Positions 4,011-61,307 of a stretch of DNA of 64,000 nucleotides are shown here, piece by piece. The position numbers were made by a program, and so were the translations under genes. The DNA is from Macrostomum lignano (taxonomy: Eukaryota), in assembly GCA_002269645.1 (NCBI GenBank), contig NIVC01001965.1, forward strand, positions 22,855-86,854, read 5' to 3'. Below the pieces are notes generated by a model, which was not told the DNA's origin, did not search any database, and worked only from the letters and a program-made list of their open reading frames with translations. How positions within the stretch are numbered: the stretch's first letter is position 1; each line of letters opens with the position of its first letter.

Positions 4011-5957
<1,947 letters not shown>

Positions 5958-6479
5958 GGCGCAGCGGGCGAGCTCTGCTGCGGGACAGAGTTGAGCAACT
6001 CGGGACTGCGATAAAATACCCAAAAATATGTCTTGCCAAAAAACATGTTTTCACCTCAAAACACATACATGCGCAATGAGGTTCTAGAGGGTAAAAACCA
6101 AAGGGGTAAGGTAGAGGTGGCTTTGTTTTTGCAAAAAGTTGCTTGGTTCCTTTCTGTTTTTTCAGGTTTCTATATAAGGGAGGGGCAACTACCCCATAGT
6201 TATATAACTATGTATATTAATGCATTGGGCATTTAAAAACATTAATTGGTTATAAAAGGAAAATAAAGCCTTATGAATTATGCTTATAAAATAAGAAAAC
6301 AAAATATTTAAATTGAATTGATGAAAATATTAAAATTTATAAATCTAGATATTAAGTGCTACTTATATATTTTATAACTACAACTTAATTGCATTTGACT
6401 TATATTATAACTATTGACTTCTTAGAAGACTAGCATAGATATTTTTTGTATTAGTTGTCACCATATAAGCTAGAATATA

Positions 6480-7257
6480 TGTCGTAGGGGTTACTTCTGC
6501 CTCTATTAATAATATCCCACTATTGCCACCAAAGTTGACGTAGGGCTTCGTCTCTCTATACAATTTCAACCGCTGACACCAAAGTTGTACCAGGGGTGTT
6601 CCTTCTTGTCAATATTGCTGGGTATTACTTGCTTTTTACTCGTAGCGCATGTACTTCTATTGGTAGCGTCTGTACTTCTATTGGTAGCGTATGTACTTTT
6701 ACTGGTAGCGTCTGTACTTCTATTGTACTTTCGGGCCTGAGCGGTCTCTTAGGCACTGTCTATTCTATTCCTATACTCTAAAGATTCAGTCCTGGGCGTT
6801 CCCGGGATCAGAGGGTCACAGCGCACTTCGCTGGGTATTCTGCCCTGAGGCGGGTTTCTCAGACTCTGAGTCTGGACTTCTCTACCCTGTGGTAGGATTT
6901 CTGCCTTCTACAGGCGATTTCTCAGATTCTAGATCTGGTTGTCTCGTTCACTAAGAACGGGTTGAACTCTCTCAATTTTGAGGCTTCTGATGCTTTCTAA
7001 AATAACTAAGTCAGTGAGTATTGAGCAATATACTAGAACAGTTTTAGGCTTGAAGCCAACGAAGCACAAGTTGCTCTCCTTCTTATTCAGCTCGTGTATT
7101 TATACTCCTCTCGATTTGGTCTTTTAAACAAATAAAATTTCATAATATTTAAAATATTTACAATATTACTAATATTATACGTATTAAAACAAAATAGTCT
7201 AGTTTCAAATACACTATTTTCTAGGAAACGAACAATGCTAAAATAAGGCCTACCTCA
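6480..7257 (-). repeat. 3' LTR (778 bp), containing four 21-bp internal repeats at 6642-6725
   Basis: Direct repeat of 11341-12118; TG...CA termini. Confidence 0.95.
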
Positions 7258-7270
7258 ACTGCCTTCCCTA
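7258..7270 (-). promoter_or_regulatory. Polypurine tract
   Basis: Minus strand reads AGGGAAGGCAGT immediately before the 3' LTR. Confidence 0.7.
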
Positions 7271-7410: not shown

Positions 7411-8629
<1,219 letters not shown>

Positions 8630-9009: not shown

Positions 9010-9750
9010 TTACTTTCGATAGTGAGAATAGCGCCTCCGGGGAACAAAGCCTGTGGTGACTAAGCTCTCTCTCCGGGGTCTCAGATTATAGCTATGCCTT
9101 TGTTCGGCCCTCTCGTTCTCACTTCTATCTTGATTTGGCTCTGATGTGTCACCTATTTCGACTGGCTCGGTTCTCTCACTGTCTAATGATTCATGCTCAA
9201 ACTCTTCTTCATTCTGCTCAATTCCTTCCTCATTTGGCTCGTTCTGTTCGATTTCTCGCACTCTCCATTGAATTCTCTCTTCTTCTGAGCTATTGTCTAA
9301 AATTATTGGTTCCAAATGGTTATTCTTATCGATCGGCTGATGTCGTTGCCTTCCCTTACTTTTCGGCTCTCTCTTTTTCTGTTGCTCTCGCTGCCTTCCC
9401 CTATTTGTAGGTTCCGTCTCTTTATTTGGTAAGTTGGTTTAAATTTTTCGAACATCTACCTTCCGAAATTACACTGCTCTTAGGATCAGGCTGAAATTTG
9501 GCTGCCAATGGGCTACCTTGCTTTCACCATAAGGCAGAGTACTCTTTCAGTAGTTCCATCTATCAAATTTCTCTTTCAGCTTTCAAGATCCTTGAGAGAG
9601 GACTTTAAATGATTAAATCATGCCTTTCTAAGCGGGATCAAGAAATTTCATTCTTGGCTTTCTCAATTTAATTGGATTATCTCTCTTTCTAAAAGAGGAC
9701 TTTTAAATTATCTCTGACAATTTCTCACTTCGACTTTCTCTCATTTCTAC
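9010..9750 (-). pseudogene. Decayed pol C-terminus (integrase GPY/F-like region plus acidic tail)
   Basis: The frame of 9010..9315 is open back to about 9438 and ends ...HSYNLRPRR (the YNLRPR tail is common in Gypsy pol). Upstream in frame, GS*KLKEKFDRWNY*KSTLPYGESKVAHW resembles the GPY/F motif with stops. Confidence 0.5.
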
Positions 9751-10636
9751 TCAGTAGTGGCACACAACGTTTTCTAGCTGCTAATTTCTTGATGCGGAAT
9801 TTCCTCGTTTACGTCTTTTCACCAATTTCTCACGATTTTCAACATGCTCTACTTAGTTCGGTCACTCAGTAGTGCCTTTGACATTTTCGAGCTTCTATCT
9901 ACACAGTCTTCTCAAATTCTGCTCTATTTTTGTTCTTCACAGTCTATCGCATCCTTTTAGAAAGCAATGAAGTCTTTATCTAAAGAGGGACACACGAAGA
10001 TAGCTGATCAGATTTTCTCAATTTTCTCATCAAATTCTCAACTCTTCTCCAAATTCTCTTCTTCAAATTCTCTTCTCGTCTCAATATCTCCTGAATTCTT
10101 CTCTTGAATTCACTTCTACAACTTCAACAGCTTCTATCGCTCCTTCTTAAGTGTCTATCAGCGTTTCGAGGGTGCGGCTAGGCTTTCCCTAGTCTACCTC
10201 TGCTTCTAGTACACTTGCTTTGATTTTACTTCTCGTCTCAATTCTCTTCAAAACTTCTCAACTTCGCAACTCTTATCTCGCTTCTATTCCTGTTTGTAAG
10301 AGTTTATTCTCAATTATTTCTTTCCGCAGAGCCTTTTATTAATACTCTGGAAGGACTTTGGCTAATTAGTTATGCTTCCTATCTTCTGAGCAACTTCACT
10401 ATCCCAAATTAAGCCTATATCTGAATTTTAGTAAAACGGCCCTTCTAAGGGTTAATTTGCAAAACGGCCCCTTTGAGGGCTCTAATAAGCAATTAAGTGC
10501 ATTTTATACGTTATATAGTGCTAATTCAAACATTTTTATTTTCTTTTTCGAAGCTTTTTATAAATTTTTATATTTTTATGGATACTATGTACACTTTTCT
10601 GAGCTTTAACTGAATCGTGCTTTACAGACTCAACTC

Positions 10637-11224
10637 TCATCCTTTCTCCTGGGCTCGCTGTCTGGCTTCTCCCAAGTTAATTCTGCATCTGTGGCCTGCC
10701 TGTGGTCTTATCGAACCTGGCTGCCCACAGAAGAAGCAATGGCCGGGTTTTGGCTCAGGTCTGGCGCCACTAAATCGGTGCCTGAACTGGGGACGCGGCT
10801 TTGGCATTGGCTGGGACTGCTGCTGCCGTTCCGGGTTTGAGTTCACGTTGATACTAGTGAAGATAGTTATCAAGGTGACCAAGCACTCCACTAGGGCTTC
10901 AGTTCCTCCTTTCTGGTTCTGCTGTTTTGGCTTAAACTCCTCAATGATCTGCCTCCTAATCTCCTGATAATGCTGCTGATCTTTCCTATGGCTCATCCTC
11001 CGCTTCAGTCCTTCTGGAATGTCCAGATTGGCGAAGAGGGCTTCCTTCCGCTTTTCTTCGTTAAATCCTTGCATCCTGCATTGCTGCTCGAATGCGTTGA
11101 GCCACTGCCTGATGTTCTTGTCAGACGTGTACTTTTCTACTTCTACCTGCTTCAGTGATCCTAGTTCTACCCTGTTTCTTAGCTCTTCGGCTAGCATCGC
11201 AATCGCATCATTTGCATTGGCCAT
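10637..11224 (-). CDS. gag: Short Gag-like protein (195 aa) with atypical zinc knuckle
   Basis: First ATG after the PBS; capsid-like KY...IRQWLNAFEQQC...KRKEALFANL; C-terminal CFFCGQPG. Confidence 0.8.
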   Translation of the reverse strand: MANANDAIAMLAEELRNRVELGSLKQVEVEKYTSDKNIRQWLNAFEQQCRMQGFNEEKRKEALFANLDIPEGLKRRMSHRKDQQHYQEIRRQIIEEFKPKQQNQKGGTEALVECLVTLITIFTSINVNSNPERQQQSQPMPKPRPQFRHRFSGARPEPKPGHCFFCGQPGSIRPQAGHRCRINLGEARQRAQEKG

Positions 11225-11317
11225 CTCTGATCTTGTCAGGTTCTGCTATTTCTCTAGTCTTCTAACCGTTTCTCTAATTCTGGCCATTTCTCTGATCTAA
11301 TTCTCGCCGTTTCTCTG

Positions 11318-11335
11318 ATCCCACCGCTGCCACCA
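11318..11335 (-). promoter_or_regulatory. Primer-binding site, tRNA-Leu
   Basis: Minus strand TGGTGGCAGCGGTGGGAT, 5 nt after the 5' LTR; complementary to ATCCCACCGCTGCCACCA, the 3' end of metazoan tRNA-Leu(AAG) as I recall it. Confidence 0.85.
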
Positions 11336-11340
11336 AAAGT

Positions 11341-12118
11341 TGTCGTAGGGGTTACTTCTGCCTCTATTAATAATATCCCACTATTGCCACCAAAGTTGAC
11401 GTAGGGCTTCGTCTCTCTATACAATTTCAACCGCTGACACCAAAGTTGTACCAGGGGTGTTCCTTCTTGTCAATATTGCTGGGTATTACTTGCTTTTTAC
11501 TCGTAGTGCATGTACTTCTATTGGTAGCGTCTGTACTTCTATTGGTAGCGTATGTACTTTTACTGGTAGCGTCTGTACTTCTATTGTACTTTCGGGCCTG
11601 AGCGGTCTCTTAGGCACTGTCTATTCTATTCCTATACTCTAAAGATTCAGTCCTGGGCGTTCCCGGGATCAGAGGGTCACAGCGCACTTTGCTGGGTATT
11701 CTGCCCTGAGGCGGGTTTCTCAGACTCTGAGTCTGGACTTCTCTACCCTGTGGTAGGATTTCTGCCTTCTACAGGCGATTTCTCAGATTCTAGATCTGGT
11801 TGTCTCGTTCACTAAGAACGGGTTGAACTCTCTCAATTTTGAGGCTTCTGATGCTTTCTAAAATAACTAAGTCAGTGAGTATTGAGCAATATACTAGAAC
11901 AGTTTTAGGCTTGAAGCCAACGAAGCACAAGTTGCTCTCCTTCTTATTCAGCTCGTGTATTTATACTCCTCTCGATTTGGTCTTTTAAACAAATAAAATT
12001 TCATAATATTTAAAATATTTATAATATTACTAATATTATACGTATTAAAACAAAATAGTCTAGTTTCAAATACACTATTTTCTAGGAAACAAACAATGCT
12101 AAAATAAGGCCTACCTCA
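11341..12118 (-). repeat. 5' LTR (778 bp)
   Basis: Direct repeat of 6480-7257; followed on the minus strand by the PBS. Confidence 0.95.
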
Positions 12119-14243
12119 TATACATGCACAATTTCTGGCCAACCTAGCTGATCTGGTCACTATAAATTATGATGGTCTAGTGATAGTCATAAAAATGCCC
12201 ACCTAAAATAATATAAATATAGCATTAATTGCATGATGAGGCATTTAGCCTTAATAATGAATTAAATAAATTATATAATGGAAATATAAATCTTAACAAA
12301 ATAACTACAACCAAATATTATGAAATGTCTCTTATCACTAAAATGACAATACTCATGAAATCTTTGATTTTTCATTGAAAACGAAGTGTGTCTATCACAA
12401 TAGCAACTTGTGACCAAAAATTAAAATGACTATTTGTCACCAAAATGACTATTTGTCACCGAAATGACTGGTACCCTTAATAAGACAATCATAGTTAAGC
12501 CTACTCCTGGCAGTTATCCAAAATTGCATTAATTTTGTGCTTTTTTAGGGTTTTTTTTCAATTTTCACAAGTAAGTTGCATGGCCAGTGTAAATCAAGGC
12601 AAGGGGGTTGTGCATATATAAGTTAGAAGAAACCATTAGCTAGGCCTAAGAGTAGTAAACTTTGTTAGCATAGGGCCTAACCATTGCTCTAAGCAGTTGG
12701 CAACTTAGCATCAGGTTCAACCTTTTTATTTTGTAACAGGAAAGATATTAGGCTACCTTATTAGCCTATTATTAGGCCTAATTCTAACTAATATAATAGG
12801 CATATTGAAAATCTCATCTTAGGCCTAATATTAATTTAAGTTTTTAAATAAATGCCAAACTTATAAACATTTAGTATAATTTCAAATCCAAAATCAAACT
12901 TGTAGGCCTAAATTTATGCTTATTTACAGCTAGCTAGGCAAAAAACCTAGGCTTACCACTTACAGTTACACCTATATCTGACAAAAAGAAAATGATAAAT
13001 ATGACACTAGTTACTACTAGTAGTTATTGTAGCAACAATGTATTTATTGATTCATTAGGCCTATATACCCATGTATATTTATTTCATAACTATGATGTCT
13101 ATGAGTACGATGAGGCCACAAGAGGAACTAGACGTTTGTAGTAAATTGCAGCGACGTGAAGTAGTAGTAGTAAATTTGCTCAGGCCAGTAAGAACTATAT
13201 ATTTGAGATATTTTTGAGACGAAAGTTTATTTAGATGTGGATTTAAATTCAGCCCCGGCTTTACGCTTTACAATATGTTAAACAAACAATCTTATAATCC
13301 TAGTTAAATAATCTGGTATAAAAGTCGTTTTATAAAAAAGTAATATAAATGTATTTTATGCTTAAATTATCTATAAACTTTTTACAACAAATTTCTGTCT
13401 TTCCATCGATTTTGATTTTGATTTTTTGTAAGAAAGCAAGTGTAAATATTCCGCCCTTGGGGTAGAATAAATGCTGATATATGACTTTAATCTGTTTATT
13501 TTATTATTAATCTGTTGTTTAAAATGTAAAGAAGCTAGCAAAACTGACACTATAGTATCATTTACTTCTTATAGATATTGTAGACCTGCATAATGTCTAA
13601 AATAAATATTAATTGCTAACTTACAATTTACATTAGTATAATGTAGATTATATAGCTTAGATATGTAACTTCGAAAGTCTGTGGTAGTATTATATTTGTA
13701 GGATTTAATTTTAAGTGCTATTAGTTTGTTTTGATATAAACTGTAGACATTTAAATTATATGTAAGCTTAGTTAAAATAAATGAACTATATATGGTACTA
13801 AATTGATTTGAAATGCCTAATTTGGCTTCTAGTTTGTTTTTATGTTTTACTACTACATACTAGCTAGTTTCTTTTGGGAAATGATACTTTTTATTTTTTT
13901 AATTATTTTTAGTACAATATAGGCTTCTATATTCTTAAATAAAGCATATCATTTTTAAAGGATTATAAAAAGCATAGTTTTTTGAGGTTCTAATATGAAT
14001 AGATTTATATGTTATTGTTTTGTTACCATATTTATTATCTTTATAAACTATGAGCTTTCTAGATGCTCTCTTAAGTTATTTTTCATAATATTTAGCAATA
14101 TCAACTTTATGTATAATCATAGTTTATATATACATTATAATAAGCTACAAAACTGAAAATACAATTATCAAATCTATCTTGAACTTAAATTAATTTACTT
14201 GCATGCTTCCAGAAGATAGAAAGTCATATTTTATAAAGGCTAA

Positions 14244-54993: not shown

Positions 54994-55134
54994 CATGTAC
55001 TTGCTAGCGCGGGTTGGGGGGTGCGGTGAGTATGCTGATCAATATCAAATAGTTTAATATAAAGCAGGCTTTTTAGCTGGTAAAGTTTTTCGTGCTTTGG
55101 AGCCAAAATAAAGTTTTGTCTTGACTTTATTTCA
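54906..55134 (+). repeat. Putative 5' LTR of the Gypsy element
   Basis: TG...CA, TATAAA and AATAAA (55107), followed by PBS-like TGGTGATGAGGATGG (55136-55150) and gag. No partner LTR found in the window. Confidence 0.5.
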
Positions 55135-55137
55135 CTG

Positions 55138-56860
55138 GTGATGAGGATGGCCACTGGGCCACTGTGTAGCATAGGGCCGTTTGAGCCTGAGATGGAGGAC
55201 TGGTCGCAATACAAGGAGCACATTGAACAAGTGTTCATTGCAAACGAAATCAAAAGCAAAGAGAAGAAGCGAGCGGTATTCCTCAGCGTGTGCGGCAAGG
55301 ACACCTATAGGCTTGTCACCAGTCTTCTGGCCCCAGTTAAGCCTTCAGAGGCTTCCTTTGCTAACATCTGCAAAAAGCTTGACGATCACTGGGACCCAAA
55401 GCTGTCAGAGATTGTGCAAAGGTTCCACTTTTACCAGCGCATTCGAGAGAGCTCGGAGTCTGTGGCCGACTTCCTGGCGACACTGCGGCATTTGGCTGTC
55501 CACTGCAACTTCGGTAACAGCTTGAGCACCATGCTGAGAGATTGTCTGGTGCTTGGCATCCAGGATGATCGCATACAGCGCAGACTCCTGTCCGAGACAG
55601 AGTTGGACCTGGACAGAGCACTGGCAATCTACAGGTGCTACAGGTGTCTGTCAGCGAAACACCTGGCGGCGAAGTGCCCATTCATGAAGAATGCCTGTTT
55701 CAAGTGCGGCAAGATGGGGCACACTGCTGCAGCCTGTCAAGGAGGCGCGGATTCGGCTGGAGCTGAGCCGCAGTCGCAAGTCGCCGCTATGGAGGAGGAT
55801 AGCCAAGACGCCAAGACTGCAGCTCCCTGAACACCTTGCCCAGTGCAGCTGCCAAGGTACCGCCGTACATCACCACGGTCCTGCTCAACGGAGTGTCCTG
55901 CCAGATGGAGATGGACACGGGCGCGGCCGTATTGCTGATATCGGCTAGAGCCTATCATGACCTGCTGGGCGGGGCTCCTGAGCTCGAGCGGACCCCGATT
56001 CGACTGCGGAACTACTGTGGACAGCCGGTCAGCGTACTCAGTCAGATCAGCGTGTCTGCAGAGATTCCAGGTAAAGCCAAGCAGCTTCTTCCTCTTCTAG
56101 TGGTATCTGGATCTGGTTCCAGCCTCATTGGTAGGAACTGGCTGGCTGTGCTGCTGTTGAATTGGGGAAGCGTCAAGCAGCTGCACGAAGCGTCGGCTCC
56201 AAAGGATCAGCAAGTGCAGAAGTTGCTAGAGAGGTTCAGCCCCATTTTCTCGAGTGGCCTCGGCTGCTACATGGGTGAACCTCTGAAACTACGAGTGAAG
56301 CCCGGGGCGCGACCCAAGTTCATGATGGCGCGGCAGGTACCTTTCGCTTTGAAGTCCAAAATGGAAGAGCAGCTTGAGCGGGAGATCCAGCAAGGCATTC
56401 TGCGGCTGGTCTCCGATTCGGAGTATGCGTCCCCAATCGTGCCGGTGCTGAAGTCGGACAGCTCCGTCAGAATCTGCGCAGATTTCAAGTGCACGGTAAA
56501 CCAGGACGTGGAGATGGACTGCTACCCGCTGCCAAGGATTGAGGAGTTGTTCGCCAAGCTCACTGGCGGCCAAAATTTCACCAAGCTGGACCTCAGCCAG
56601 GCATACATGCAGCTTCCGCTCGACGAAGAGTCTCAGCGCCTGTGCACCATCAACACCTCGAAGGGTTTGCTGAGGTATACAAGGCTACCGTTTGGAATCT
56701 CACCAGCAGTTGGAATCTTCCAGAGAACCATGGACGGCCTGCTGCATGGTGCACAGCATACGGCAACCTTTATTGATAACGTGTTGGTGACCGGCGCCGA
56801 TGACGCTGAGCACCTCGAGAATCTGGAGACCGTCCTGCAGCGCCTGAAGGATGCCGGGCT
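55138..56860 (+). mobile_element. Degenerate Gypsy retrotransposon gag-pol (gag, protease, RT N-half)
   Basis: Gag FEPEMEDWSQYKE...KRAVFLSVCG...SESVADF..LRHLAVHCNFG..MLRDCLVLG with knuckle CFKCGKMGHTAAAC; protease MDTGA; RT RICADFK, LDLSQAY, RLPFG, FIDNVLV. Stop/frameshift at about 55830. Confidence 0.92.
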
Positions 56861-59800
56861 AGTGGACTGGTGTATCACCGTAAAGTCCGCAGGGGGGAGA
56901 CGGGCAACTCAATTGTCCTCGGCCTTTCCAGCACTTGGGCAAGTCGGTACCCTAATGGATCCTCTTTCCAGCTGGGTGCCCTCAAGCTCAAGATGCGCCG
57001 AGGAAAGTCTGCCAAAGGGAAGGCTACTGCCAACCCCGGCATCTCCGGCAAGAGTGGTGCGCAGTCTAAGGCCCAAGGAAAGGCGCAAGCCGATCCCAAA
57101 GCCAAAGCTGCATCTCGCCCCTCTGCTAGCAGCAGTTCGGCGACCGCGGTAATGGCTCTGGCCAAGCCCCGGGAACCAAACCTGCCAGTCGGAGAAGGAG
57201 TTGAGGACGAGGCCGGGTCTTCGGAATCTGAGCTCTCCTCGGCCACCCTGGTGGGGTCTGAAGGTAAAGATGCAGGTGAGGAAGCTTCCTCCATCCTGTC
57301 ATTAGAGCCTGAGGACTCTGCTGGGGGGGCCGGTGGGGGTGAGGAGGCCATGGACGTCAACCAACTCCCATCTCCCAGTCAAGCCCCAGCGGCCTGGGAC
57401 GAGGACAATCTGTTGTCCAAGTCTCCTTGATGGCCCTGGGCTCTAGCCAGAAATTGCATTTAATACAGTATGACTAAGCTCTACACTGCCAAAGGAGTGA
57501 CATTCTGTCTGCAAATTAATTTACAGCATTGCGTATCTGCGTCAGTAAATCTGATGAAGATTGCTGAGCTGTACAGGCCAGGCCTCATCCTGATCCAGGA
57601 ACCCTGGATGCGCAATGGTAAGTTGCCCAACATTCCCTCTGGCTACTCTGATTTTTATGTGTGTGGCCCGGGGAACAGCCGCCCTAGAGCGGCTATCCTC
57701 GCTGCTAGCCATCTCCAGGCTTGGCTGAGGACTGATCTCTCTGATAGAGACCTTTGTGTCATCCAATCTAATCATTTCTCTCCGCGTACGTGTCTTGTTG
57801 CCTCGGTTTATATCCCAGGCGACAGAGACCCTGCTCCTGAGAGTTTACTGTGCCTCGCGCAATACTGCGAGTCCCAGAATGCTGAGCTGTGCTTAGGGGG
57901 CGACCTCAACGCGCACCACAAGCACTGGGGCAGCAAAGATACTAACACTAGAGGAGAGGAGCTTCTGGCCCTCATCTCTAACACAAACCTCATGCTCTGC
58001 AACCGCGGCAGCACTCCTACCTTTAATAATGGCAGATGGACCAAGGTCCTCGACGCCACACTTGTTACTCCAAGACTCTTTGACAGAGTTGAGGAGTGGA
58101 GAGTCTGGTCTGAGGAGCCCTCCCTGTCTGACCATTGCTTTATCGCCTTTAACATTGCGGACACTAAAACCCAGTCTCCGATCACTTGGAGACGCAATAT
58201 CCGCAACACTGATTGGGCGGCCTACAAGGCTGCCCTTGATCTGCACCTGCAGGAACTCACGGACTTATGTCCAATTGAGACCTGCGAGGATGTGGATCAT
58301 ATGGCTAAGACGCTGACAGGTTGCATTATTGAAGCCTACGAAGCGGCTTGTCCTGCTCGCGCCTACAAAGGCAAGACCTTGGCGCCGTGGTGGAACCCAG
58401 AGCTGGGGAAACTCAGGCGGAAGGCCAAAAGCCTTCATCGCCGTGCCATGAAGACCGGAAACCCGGAGGACATGGAGCTTTTCCAGCAAGCCTCCCGCAA
58501 TTTCAAATCTGAAGTGTGCAAGGCCAAGGAATGTAAGTGGCGCCAATTCTGCAATGAATTGGATCAAGACAGACCTACTTCTAGGCTTGTCAAGGCCCTT
58601 ACAATGGACAAAATGTCCAAATTAGCCATGATCAAAAAAGATGATGGCTCTCTTACTAAAGACCCTGAAGAAGTGCTTTAGCATATGCTTAGCACATTCT
58701 TCCCGAGGGTACCTACTGCTAGACCGGAGCCCAACCATTCAATGGATGGAGCCACCCTAGCGGCGGGCATTGTCACTGAAGACCTAATCGCTCATGCGGT
58801 CAGAACCTTCAAACCTTTCAAATCTCCTGGACCTGATGATATCTACCCTGTTCTCCTTCGTGAAGCAGCCAAGATACCCTCGTTCCTGAGACTCACCCGC
58901 AATCTTATGCAGGCCTCTATCCAGCTGGGATACATTCCCAAATGCTGGACTGAAGCTTGGGTAGTCTTTATTCCCAAACCTGGGAAGGGTGACTACCAAA
59001 GCGTCAAGGCCTTCCGGCCTATTAGCTTAACGTCAGCAATGCTTAAGCTCACTGAGAGGCTTATTCTCTGGCGGCTGCTGTCCTGCGAGCTGACAACGAT
59101 GCCCCTCAGCAATAATCAGCACGCCTTCCATACCGGGAGGTCGACTGACAGCGCCCTGCATGCGATTGTCGAGAAGATTGAAAGGGCGGTACTGGGTGAC
59201 GATTACGCTCTGGCTCTCTTTCTTGACATTGTTGGTGCCTTCGACAACGTTATCTTTGAAGCGTTTCAGAGGGCCCTTCAAAATCGCAAAGCTCATGCTA
59301 CCCTCATACGGTGGATCATGTACATGATCTCCAACCGTACAGTCACTGCCCAACTTCTTGGGCAAACTGCCTCCACCAGAGTCTGTAAGGGTGGACCCCA
59401 AGGCGGAGTCCTCACCCCGATGCTCTGGAACCTGGTCATGGACGCTCTTTTGAGTGACTCCCAACCCGACCCCGTCTTCAAAGTCGGGTATGCTGATGAC
59501 ATCATGGCCATTGTGGCAGGACCATCTCCCAGCACGCTCAGGGATCTAATGCAGAGCTTTATCCGCAAAGCAGAATCCTGGGCCAATGACAATGGTCTGG
59601 AACTCTCTGAGCCCAAAACCGTTGCCATTATGTTTACCAGCAGACTACGCTGGAACATACGTCCTCTGCAGCTCTACGGCAGAGATATTGCCTTCGTGCA
59701 CCAGACCAGATGTCTTGGGGTCATACTTGACCACCGGCTCAACTGGTCCTCCCACGTGAAAGCAAAAGCCAAGCGTGCCTCAGCCATCCTGGCCCAGCTC

Positions 59801-61307
59801 CGACGAGCACTTGGCACTTCTTGGGGTCTATCCCCAAAGCAGCTTTGGTGGATCTATACTTCCGTAGTTAGACCTGCCATTACGTACGCCTCTGTTGTCT
59901 GGGTTAGCGCTACCCAGGTCAAAAGCCATGCAGACCTGCTCAACACGATCCAAGGCAGAGCGTGTAGGCTCATCTGCAACGCCACTAGGTCCATGCCCTT
60001 TGCTGGCATGGGGGCCTTCCTTAATCTTCCGCCTCTTGACCTCTTCATCAGGGGTGAGGCGGCTAGAACGACGCGGCGTCTAATTGATGCCGGCGTCAAA
60101 TTCATTTACATGAGAGCACCTGCTAAGCGGAACCTTGTCCCGCATAGCGATCTGTGCCTCAACTTTCTCAACGAGTGTCAGGCCAATCGCATCTTCACCA
60201 ATGGCATTGCCTCAATGCTCAACCTGAGACAGCGCTACTCCGTAGCTATTGACTCGCGCGATAACATCAATGACCATTGGAACCCTGGTGAGCTTCATTG
60301 CTACACCGACGGTTCTAAGCAGTCAGCCAACACCGGCTTTGGTGTTGGAATCTTTCTGAACAGGAGGGTCATCGCTACCCACACTCAATACACTGGGGTC
60401 AACTCCAGTGTTTTCCAAAATGAAGTTCTGGCCATCAGCTCCTGCACTGCAGAGCTTCTCGCCACTGGCGTTATCGGTAAGAACATCATTTTCTATTCGG
60501 ACAGCCAAGCTGCCTTGCACGCCATCAGTGGCTGCAGCACCAACTCTGCTACAGTCCTTGACTGTATCAAACTCCTAAATGTGTTGGGTTCCGCCAACAA
60601 AATTACCCTTAAGTGGGTTCCGGGGCATGTGGGGATCCGAGGAAATGAGTTGGCTGACACCCTTGCAAAAGTTGGTGCCTCCGGCTCCTCTCTCGGCCCC
60701 GAACCTCTTGTCCCAATTCCTTGCTGTGTCATCGACTTGCACATCAAAGTGTGGATCAGGACTCAGCACCACTCGACTTGGGCGAACCGCACAAATTGCA
60801 GGCAATCCAGAGGCGCTGTCCCTCAGCCCTCTCACCAGCTCCGGAAGCTCCTCTTGCGCCTCTCGCGCAGAGACATCCGGGCTGCCACCATGACCCTCTC
60901 TGGTCACGGCTGCTTCTCCAGGCACCAGCACCTGCAGGGCAACGCCACCAACGCCACCTGTAGCTTCTGCAACTCAGGTGACAAAACCGCTGAGCATTTC
61001 GTCAGCATCTGTCCCGCCTTCACGCGGGCCAGACTCACTTACCTTGGGGCCACACACATCTATTACTGAAGTGTGCAAACCCGAAAACTTTAATCAGCTC
61101 ATGCGCTACCTTCGGGCCACCCGCAGGGCTGAACTATCCTTTCCAGAGAGCACCATAGCTGCTGGTGACACTGGGGGACCTCCCTGGGCGGCGCCAACCC
61201 TCCGTCCATAGCGACGCATCGGCCGTTCAGGGACTAGCGGAATAGGCGCCCGCGCCTTCCCGCTGTGTCCCCTCCGGGACAGCCCTGCAGCTAAGTCAAG
61301 TAAGTAA
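56861..61307 (+). mobile_element. 5'-truncated LINE (LOA/R1-group-like): ORF1 C-terminus plus APE-RT-RNase H ORF2
   Basis: 8-bp TSD GCCGGGCT (56853-56860, 61308-61315); (TAAG)n tail. ORF2 has QINLQH, ILIQEPW, GDLNAH, SDH, RPISL, LDIVGAFD, PQGGVL, YADD, YTDGSK, SDSQAAL, WVPGH, GNELAD and C-terminal CSFC...EHF..C. Confidence 0.95.
57470..61069 (+). pseudogene. LINE ORF2 (endonuclease-RT-RNase H) with one in-frame TAG (58679-58681) and a terminal frameshift (~61045)
   Basis: ORFs 57470-58681 and 58685-61069 are in the same frame; the expected C-terminal ...NQLMRYLRATRR lies in another frame. Confidence 0.9.

What the first reader, a model, noticed from the sequence alone, without database searches (positions are those of the whole stretch)
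6480..6600. LTR U5 carries two embedded copies of its own LTR-end + primer-binding-site junction
On the minus strand the LTR ends in three 51-57-bp related units: CCCCTGGTACA-ACTT-TGGTGTCAGCGGTTGAAA..., CCCTACGTCA-ACTT-TGGTGGCAATAGTGGGAT..., and the real junction CCCCTACGACA-ACTTT-TGGTGGCAGCGGTGGGAT. Two pseudo att/PBS modules therefore sit inside both LTRs (also 11341-11461), with divergence increasing away from the active PBS. Inference: the LTR grew stepwise. After a duplication of the end/PBS, priming at the downstream copy would put the older copy into strong-stop DNA and fix it in both LTRs. Alternatively the copies could be spare priming sites or decoys for tRNA-derived small RNAs that silence LTR elements at the PBS.
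Basis: partly seen in the sequence, partly recalled or inferred. Interest (0 to 1): 0.78.

Follow-up and report, generated by a model that had tools for sequence, protein, structure and literature searches.

The report
Old primer junctions trapped in LTRs
A young jumping gene, probably from a flatworm, carries two decayed copies of its own copying-start site inside both of its end repeats, most likely leftovers of earlier start sites, and similar extra copies turn up in other animal jumping genes that use the same kind of primer.

Summary
Observation confirmed. A young non-autonomous Ty3/gypsy element (778-bp LTRs, 4 substitutions, TATA target duplication, tRNA-Leu PBS; nearest proteins from Macrostomum lignano) has two att+spacer+PBS copies 107 and 57 nt upstream of the real PBS, in both LTRs (0 of 3000 shuffles reach either score). 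Best reading: junction capture. The LTR end plus 18-nt PBS was duplicated, priming at the downstream copy wrote the older copy into both LTRs, and decay locked it in. Spacers align with LTR-end sequence, not leader. One contig from a sequencing run of the same organism shows two PBS copies in another order. A metagenome scan built to find such pairs gave 50 loci (25 clusters, 8 with retroelement coding evidence): whole-junction repeats of variable number, and a short 9-11-nt PBS 'echo' inside both LTRs of Gmr1-order elements, conserved where flanks are not. The echo is not universal (absent in the lennie/ta-TRIM records seen). tRF decoy is disfavoured: the seed-pairing half is what decays. No function is shown; two RNA-structure tests were not significant. 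New variant of a known kind; interest 0.55.

The parts
11341..12118 (-). 5' LTR, 778 bp, TG...CA
6480..7257 (-). 3' LTR, 778 bp, 99.5% identical to the 5' LTR (4 substitutions)
12119..12122 (-). 4-bp target-site duplication TATA, upstream copy
6476..6479 (-). 4-bp target-site duplication TATA, downstream copy
11425..11457 (-). Module A in the 5' LTR: att-like (8/11), 4-nt spacer, PBS-like (14/18; 12 of the first 13; T at position 6 as in another Leu-type PBS; 3' end lost)
11375..11406 (-). Module B in the 5' LTR: att-like (9/10), 4-nt spacer, PBS-like (15/18; three adjacent transitions at positions 9-11)
11318..11351 (-). Active junction: LTR end, 5-nt spacer, 18-nt PBS, an exact complement of the human LeuAAG 3' tRNA fragment
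   Evidence: tRF identity from PMC12452697 passage
6564..6596 (-). Module A copy in the 3' LTR, identical to the 5' copy
6514..6545 (-). Module B copy in the 3' LTR, identical to the 5' copy
11495..11586 (-). Three (plus one degenerate) 21-nt tandem repeats, antisense to spacer+PBS (13, 12, 12 of 16; 33 of 3000 shuffles reach 13); predicted to pair with the real PBS (P about 0.75) and module B (P about 0.7). Same array at 6634-6725
11960..11965 (-). TATA-like box at LTR position 154 (consensus match only)
10637..11224 (-). Truncated gag ORF, 195 aa, degenerate zinc knuckle; homologous to M. lignano gag-like proteins
9010..10600 (-). Region where pol would lie: no long ORF except a 142-codon piece at its end; no hit to pol proteins of the fetched loci
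7645..8610 (-). Extra ORF, 321 aa, Gln/Pro-rich repeats, no Pfam family; homologue in M. lignano (P0001)
7262..7269 (-). Short polypurine tract, 4 nt before the 3' LTR; AGT before TG mirrors ACT after CA

Best explanation
Modules A and B are former LTR-end/PBS junctions captured into the LTR. (1) A segment of about 50-57 nt, made of about 30 nt of LTR end, the spacer and the 18-nt PBS, was duplicated, twice in this lineage (duplication shown; route inferred). The unit ends at about the 3' end of the PBS, where plus-strand strong-stop DNA ends, so a misplaced second strand transfer is the likeliest route; ordinary slippage is not excluded. (2) tRNA-Leu priming at the downstream PBS copies everything upstream into minus strong-stop DNA, so the older junction enters both LTRs (textbook inference; presence in both LTRs shown). 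(3) Priming at an upstream copy would undo this. Only the primer-bound PBS is rewritten from tRNA each cycle, so upstream copies decay, lose the competition and become locked in: a ratchet (inferred). The captured copies may record earlier primer isodecoders. In this element they are most likely tolerated relics, possibly kept paired by the antisense 21-nt repeats.
For: Both modules are in both LTRs and far above chance. Each holds att, spacer and PBS in register, with the more distal copy more decayed. Spacer 2 is homologous to the LTR sequence before module A and not to the leader; L037 shows the same (p=0.001 vs 0.90), with homology starting 4 nt after the upstream PBS. In L037 the two PBS are perfect complements of two different tRNA 3' ends, both listed as tRNA fragments in PMC12025293. 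One contig in run X4 holds a perfect PBS, a 33-nt spacer ending in an att-like CA, then an A-type PBS (5c; 1 of 4 runs). Module number varies in the L008/L017/L040/L042 cluster, and runaway att+PBS arrays exist (L007/L023/L035, L029). This LTR family is repeat-prone: 21-nt repeats, variable leader repeats. A natural partial PBS duplication is known in the HIV-1 MAL leader (PMC3185550 passage).
Against: In other elements a short echo is conserved while its flanks are not: 12 contiguous invariant columns in 5 sequences, 4 of them not forced by my pattern, against 1 of 24 flanking columns. Identity to the own PBS falls from 10 of 11 at position 9 to 0.21 at positions 12-18. CA sits exactly 4 nt before the echo in 6 of 11 families, as in modules A and B, although the real spacers mostly differ (post hoc). 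Neutral decay does not predict this. None of the 40 variant rows shown for the family falls in 11287-11470 (182 rows not shown, so weak). Module counts per copy could not be made. No other whole-junction locus had its 3' LTR within the DNA fetched.
Confidence: 0.58

Rival explanations
1. The copies arose by capture but are kept by selection as a cis-element: a second docking site for the 3' acceptor end of tRNA-Leu (primer loading, RNA dimerisation, or bridging of the RNA ends if the site lies in R), or one arm of a switch in which an antisense stretch pairs either with the copy or with the real PBS.
For: The echo lies inside both LTRs in 3 clusters (L013 group, L036/L053, L051). It occurs in INT-before-RT and RT-before-INT elements, including L021, whose gag is the best match to this element's gag family (E 1e-21; hhalign 98.8%). 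The only LTR-type PBS in the loci not selected by my pattern also has a 10-nt echo, at -79 (1 of 1). The block is invariant where flanks are not. An 11-12-nt Leu PBS is the working PBS of flatworm lennie/ta-TRIM (PMC4558846 passages and supplement passages), so echo length could bind tRNA. Window repeats are antisense to the PBS and pair with it in folds. In L013 the echo precedes AATAAA, i.e. it lies in R or U3.
Against: The scan selected for the motif, and no denominator exists. No echo in the 4 lennie/ta-TRIM records seen (142 occurrences of the 9-mer in that file, about one per element) or in L061. Echo-leader stem not supported (Fisher p 0.13-0.19, 11 families). Local echo hairpin not supported overall (p 0.19, or 0.07 with L036 for L030; only L053 and the unselected element are below 0.05 in that clade, plus L024). 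Whole R-U5-leader fold z = -0.1. The antisense match is post hoc, p about 0.01.
Confidence: 0.27
2. Ordinary tandem-repeat slippage or unequal recombination in a repeat-prone LTR happened to span the junction, with no link to strong-stop ends; fixation in both LTRs as in the main model.
For: The same LTR and leader carry other short tandem repeats of variable number. Arrays L007/L023/L035 and L029 include sequence after the PBS in the unit.
Against: Spacers in the window and L037 carry no leader homology. A change of tRNA type between perfect copies (L037) needs a priming event between them.
Confidence: 0.1
3. The copies are decoys for 3' tRNA fragments that silence LTR elements at the PBS.
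For: The real PBS is the exact target of an abundant LeuAAG 3' tRF in mammals. Module B keeps the 7 nt that pair with the 5' end of the 18-nt tRF.
Against: Binding is much weaker than at the real PBS (-20 and -25 vs -39 kcal/mol). A and the short echoes have lost exactly the seed-pairing half. Sites in cis on the same RNA would add targets rather than divert them (inference). No small-RNA data were found.
Confidence: 0.05

Closest known systems
HIV-1 MAL-type 23-nt insertion (partial PBS duplication; PMC3185550, passage seen)
   Same: Natural duplication of PBS sequence that persists in a replicating lineage (14% of isolates per that review).
   Different: It lies downstream of the PBS in the leader, so it is present once and not in the LTRs; it has no att copy; it is partial.
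Engineered two-PBS retroviral vectors (Voronin and Pathak 2004; only the title seen in reference lists; paper not held)
   Same: Two PBS on one RNA; the title reports frequent dual initiation.
   Different: Artificial, both sites intact. That downstream priming puts the upstream site into the LTR is my inference from reverse transcription, not read from that paper.
lennie and ta-TRIM of Echinococcus (PMC4558846; passages and 4 supplement passages)
   Same: Flatworm LTR elements with a tRNA-Leu PBS, mostly 4-bp TSD and a PPT 3 nt before the 3' LTR; non-autonomous derivative.
   Different: A single short PBS (11-12 nt with the CCA complement) and no upstream copy in the records seen.
Gmr1-order Ty3/gypsy elements (INT before RT; Leu PBS noted for Abr1 in PMC11640988 passage)
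   Same: Leu PBS; fetched members carry a PBS echo inside both LTRs.
   Different: Their echo is 9-11 nt with little att similarity, and the TSD seen is 5 bp; this element has whole-junction copies, a 4-bp TSD, and a gag family tied to RT-before-INT polyproteins.
Sirevirus multiple-PPT signature (recalled, no call)
   Same: Reiteration of a priming signal with the adjacent LTR boundary.
   Different: Plus-strand primer, outside the LTR, Copia elements of plants.

Membership tests
Ty3/gypsy LTR retrotransposon, non-autonomous | Two TG...CA LTRs with a target-site duplication | tested here: met
   778-bp LTRs, 4-bp TATA
Ty3/gypsy LTR retrotransposon, non-autonomous | tRNA PBS after the 5' LTR and PPT before the 3' LTR | tested here: met
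   18/18 complement of the LeuAAG 3' end (human sequence, species tRNA set not available); 8-nt purine run
Ty3/gypsy LTR retrotransposon, non-autonomous | gag related to Ty3/gypsy gag | tested here: met
   Homologues carry Retrotrans_gag and zf-CCHC; profile reaches a PR-RT-RH-INT polyprotein
Ty3/gypsy LTR retrotransposon, non-autonomous | No intact pol | tested here: met
   No pol ORF or Pfam hit
Gmr1 clade | INT upstream of RT | tested here: inconclusive
   Own pol is unreadable; nearest gag relatives with pol (P0015, L021) have RT before INT, which argues against
Gmr1/Osvaldo cluster of M. lignano (40 families, PMC12801592) | RT phylogeny | not testable with these tools
   No RT in the element; the one published consensus of this cluster that I read (Mlig-id38) is a different family; a tree of 8 RT rows left L021 unresolved
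Captured (relic) LTR-PBS junction | att + spacer + PBS copy inside both LTRs | tested here: met
Captured (relic) LTR-PBS junction | Module number or order varies among relatives | tested here: inconclusive
   One contig with another order and spacer, and joints with unknown letters between LTR core and junction; no per-copy count
Functional alternative priming site | Copies whose LTR end or TSD falls at an internal CA | tested here: inconclusive
   None among the loose-end rows shown; 533 rows not shown; contigs only
3' tRF decoy | Retains near-full or seed complementarity to the tRF | tested here: not met
   A lacks the seed half; B has 3 central mismatches; echoes lose positions 12-18
Tf1-type self-priming element | PBS complementary to the first bases of the transcript, with no tRNA match | tested here: not met
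   The PBS is a full tRNA complement; the antisense repeats lie about 400 nt downstream of the TATA-like box

The most novel reading that the evidence does not exclude
A large group of tRNA-Leu-primed animal Ty3/gypsy elements keeps a second, shortened PBS 40-110 nt inside the LTR end as a working cis-element. It arises by junction capture and is trimmed by selection to the part that pairs with the tRNA acceptor end, losing the part that a tRNA-fragment seed would target. It would bind a second tRNA or toggle PBS access through an antisense arm. The window's element would show early stages of this process, and the stacked copies would be a dated record of primer switches.
Probability: 0.25. 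Interest if true: 0.78.

Novelty: new variant of a known kind. Interest (0 to 1): 0.55.

Why it matters
It gives a concrete, countable route by which LTRs grow at their right end and keep a record of past primer use, since only the active PBS is rewritten from tRNA. If the shortened echo seen in other Leu-primed elements is under selection, it is a cis-element of reverse transcription that my ten literature searches did not find described, and it bears on how retroelements keep tRNA priming while facing tRNA-fragment silencing. It also matters for annotation: internal CA+PBS copies can lead LTR finders to call the wrong end.

Tried and rejected
No whole genome is held and the metagenome records could not be searched by handle, so there is no per-copy module count and no denominator for the echo. 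No other family member or tRNA gene in the window. No RNA holder listed with certainty. Read laying used contigs only: most joints have unknown letters between their sides, so they show divergent LTR ends, not direct deletions; no joint shown has intron-type ends for the minus strand. Gag-profile scans of metagenome and viral contigs found no relative (0 of 34 and 0 of 15 candidates). Viral-contig patterns gave a chance hit, tRNA-Met genes or no tRNA, nothing, or six phage ORF matches and one retroelement without an echo. Echo-leader stem: not significant. Local echo hairpin: not significant overall. 5'-half versus 3'-half remnants at unselected sites: 5 vs 3, uninformative. Poly(A) downstream-element role: mixed, and against it the echo precedes AATAAA in L013. 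I first took the 'four bases' spacing in the ta-TRIM paper to match the CA-N4 spacing; the supplement shows 1 nt before TGG, so that link was dropped. Rfam: nothing near a gathering score. RT tree unresolved (L049, L030, L042, L024 left out for short or reversed hits, near-duplicates not included). One literature search was swamped by the buffer abbreviation.

Full report
The element. The finding lies in an LTR element on the minus strand, 12118-6480. The LTRs are 778 bp, start TG and end CA, differ at 4 positions and are flanked by a TATA duplication. Inside are a truncated gag (195 aa), no readable pol and an extra 321-aa ORF. The extra ORF has one homologue, from Macrostomum lignano; the three named gag hits among 8 are also M. 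lignano, one further hit is named only 'hypothetical protein'. The host is therefore probably M. lignano or a close relative (inference). Gag relatives carry Retrotrans_gag and zf-CCHC, and the profile reaches a PR-RT-RH-INT polyprotein. So this is a young non-autonomous Ty3/gypsy element. The PBS is the exact complement of the human LeuAAG 3' tRNA fragment (PMC12452697, passages).

The observation. Two copies of att + spacer + PBS start 107 and 57 nt upstream of the real PBS and are identical in both LTRs. B matches 9 of 10 att and 15 of 18 PBS bases; A matches 8 of 11 and 14 of 18. Scores of 44 and 36 compare with a maximum of 28 in 3000 shuffles. The gradient is real but small. The LTR has a TATA-like box at position 154 and no canonical poly(A) signal, so the modules may be in R rather than U5.

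What was duplicated. Spacer 2 aligns over 32 of 39 nt with the LTR sequence before module A (p=0.004) and with spacer 1 (p=0.001), not with the leader (p=0.57); spacer 1 alone is not significant against either. The unit is thus about 30 nt of LTR end, spacer and PBS, ending near PBS position 18. That is where plus-strand strong-stop DNA ends (textbook knowledge), which points to a misplaced second transfer. With so few clear cases (window, L037) this is only suggestive.

Relatives in the same organism. Twenty of 24 listed runs hold part of the stretch. I laid contigs of 4 runs from 4 studies. The LTR core 11510-11797 is roughly 10-50 times deeper than U3, so many subfamilies share it. Several contigs link the core to a junction-like sequence with unknown letters between, showing divergent LTR ends but not module counts. 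One contig (X4, 1 of 4 runs) reads, in element sense, a perfect PBS, 33 nt ending in an att-like CA, then an A-type PBS; its spacer begins like spacer 1 (by eye). None of the 40 variant rows shown falls in 11287-11470, but 182 rows were not shown. No end at an internal CA appears in the loose-end rows shown; 533 were not shown.

Other organisms. A metagenome scan for an 8-nt PBS start 33-63 nt before a full Leu PBS gave 50 loci, none with a tRNA gene, in 25 clusters. Eight clusters have retroelement coding evidence: RT or INT hits in 7 and a gag hit in L044. Beyond the forced bases, the ninth base is G in 22 of 25 representatives and the variable base matches the own PBS in 23 of 25 (this count includes satellite-like clusters, where a match is trivial). 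I set aside 5 satellite- or tRNA-like clusters and sorted the other 20 by eye into 9 whole-junction and 11 short-echo types, so the class statistics are post hoc. Whole-junction repeats vary from 2 to 3 copies in L008/L017/L040/L042 and form arrays in L007/L023/L035 and L029. L037 has two perfect PBS of different tRNA types (both 3' ends listed in PMC12025293, passages). For none of these was the 3' LTR fetched. Short echoes match the own PBS at position 9 in 10 of 11 and fall to 0.21 identity at positions 12-18. They lie inside both LTRs in 3 clusters, mostly INT-before-RT elements, and also occur in L021, the closest gag match. In L030, L036, L043, L052 and the unselected element in L006, 12 contiguous columns are invariant, 4 of them unforced, against 1 of 24 flanking columns. 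The one LTR-type PBS not selected by the pattern also has an echo. Against generality: none in L061 or in the 4 lennie/ta-TRIM records seen (PMC4558846 supplement passages; file 1 not searched). There is no denominator.

Structure. Three 21-nt repeats upstream of the modules are antisense to spacer+PBS (13 of 16; 33 of 3000 shuffles; noticed after folding, so post hoc). Folds pair repeat 1 with the real PBS (P about 0.75) and repeat 2 with B (P about 0.7), but the region folds no better than shuffles (z -0.1). Across other families neither an echo-leader stem (p 0.13-0.19) nor a local hairpin (p 0.07-0.19) was significant.

Mechanism. Shown: duplicated junctions in both LTRs, unit anatomy, recurrence. 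Inferred: duplication, downstream priming that writes the older copy into both LTRs, and a ratchet, because only the primer-bound PBS is refreshed from tRNA and upstream priming would shorten the LTR again. I put 0.58 on relics, 0.27 on capture followed by selection as a tRNA-docking or switch element, 0.10 on plain slippage and 0.05 on a tRF decoy. The decoy loses because the seed-pairing half is what decays and binding is 14-19 kcal/mol weaker. Spare priming is not excluded: A keeps 12 of the first 13 bases, and an 11-12-nt Leu PBS serves lennie and ta-TRIM.

Known comparators and novelty. A partial PBS duplication is known in the HIV-1 MAL leader (PMC3185550, passage). Engineered two-PBS vectors exist (title only). 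LTR motif surveys list att, TATA, AATAAA and GT-rich elements; the 12 passages I saw mention no PBS copies (PMC3601003). The M. lignano LTR paper has no occurrence of PBS or tRNA in its main text (PMC12801592: part 1 of 6, passages, supplement 1, supplement 5 parts 1 and 6). PMC3832253, PMC3902901, PMC4227088 and PMC11640988 were seen as passages only. Ten searches found no description of junction copies inside LTRs. The library lacks most subscription papers, including the original Gmr1 descriptions, and Repbase notes, so prior notice is possible. An earlier scan note reports reiterated iMet PBS in a leader (e1-7217750, unchecked).

Verdict. New variant of a known kind; interest 0.55.

Noticed in passing
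window 5957-6480: The element sits about 520 bp upstream of the start codon of an RNA polymerase Rpb3/Rpb11-domain gene on the same strand; its 3' LTR could drive or disturb that gene.
   Followed up: no
window 7645-8610 (-) and 10637-11224 (-): The truncated gag and the orphan ORF both have open homologues under one M. lignano gene number (Mlig008906 g1 and g2; 68% identity over the gag C-terminal part), so this non-autonomous family keeps two ORFs open across diverged subfamilies.
   Followed up: partly
window 11510-11797: LTR core far deeper than U3 and the modules in all 4 runs: a shared core with exchangeable ends.
   Followed up: no
window 55084-61300 (+): A broken gag-pol fragment (zf-CCHC, protease, part of RT) is interrupted by a non-LTR element with endonuclease, RT and RNase H.
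   Followed up: no
L007, L023, L035, L028, L031, L039, L054, L026: Tandem arrays whose unit is or contains a tRNA-Leu PBS, some with an att-like CA: satellites apparently born from LTR junctions.
   Followed up: no
L015 445-560: Tandem copies of the reverse complement of a tRNA 3' half including CCA, not called by ARAGORN.
   Followed up: no
window 11528-11575: The core of the 21-nt repeat resembles, by eye, the LTR end of ta-TRIM and of L037, so the repeats may themselves derive from an older LTR end.
   Followed up: no
L012 143-229 and 724-810: An 87-bp copy of the multi-PBS LTR end recurs about 500 bp downstream of the PBS.
   Followed up: no
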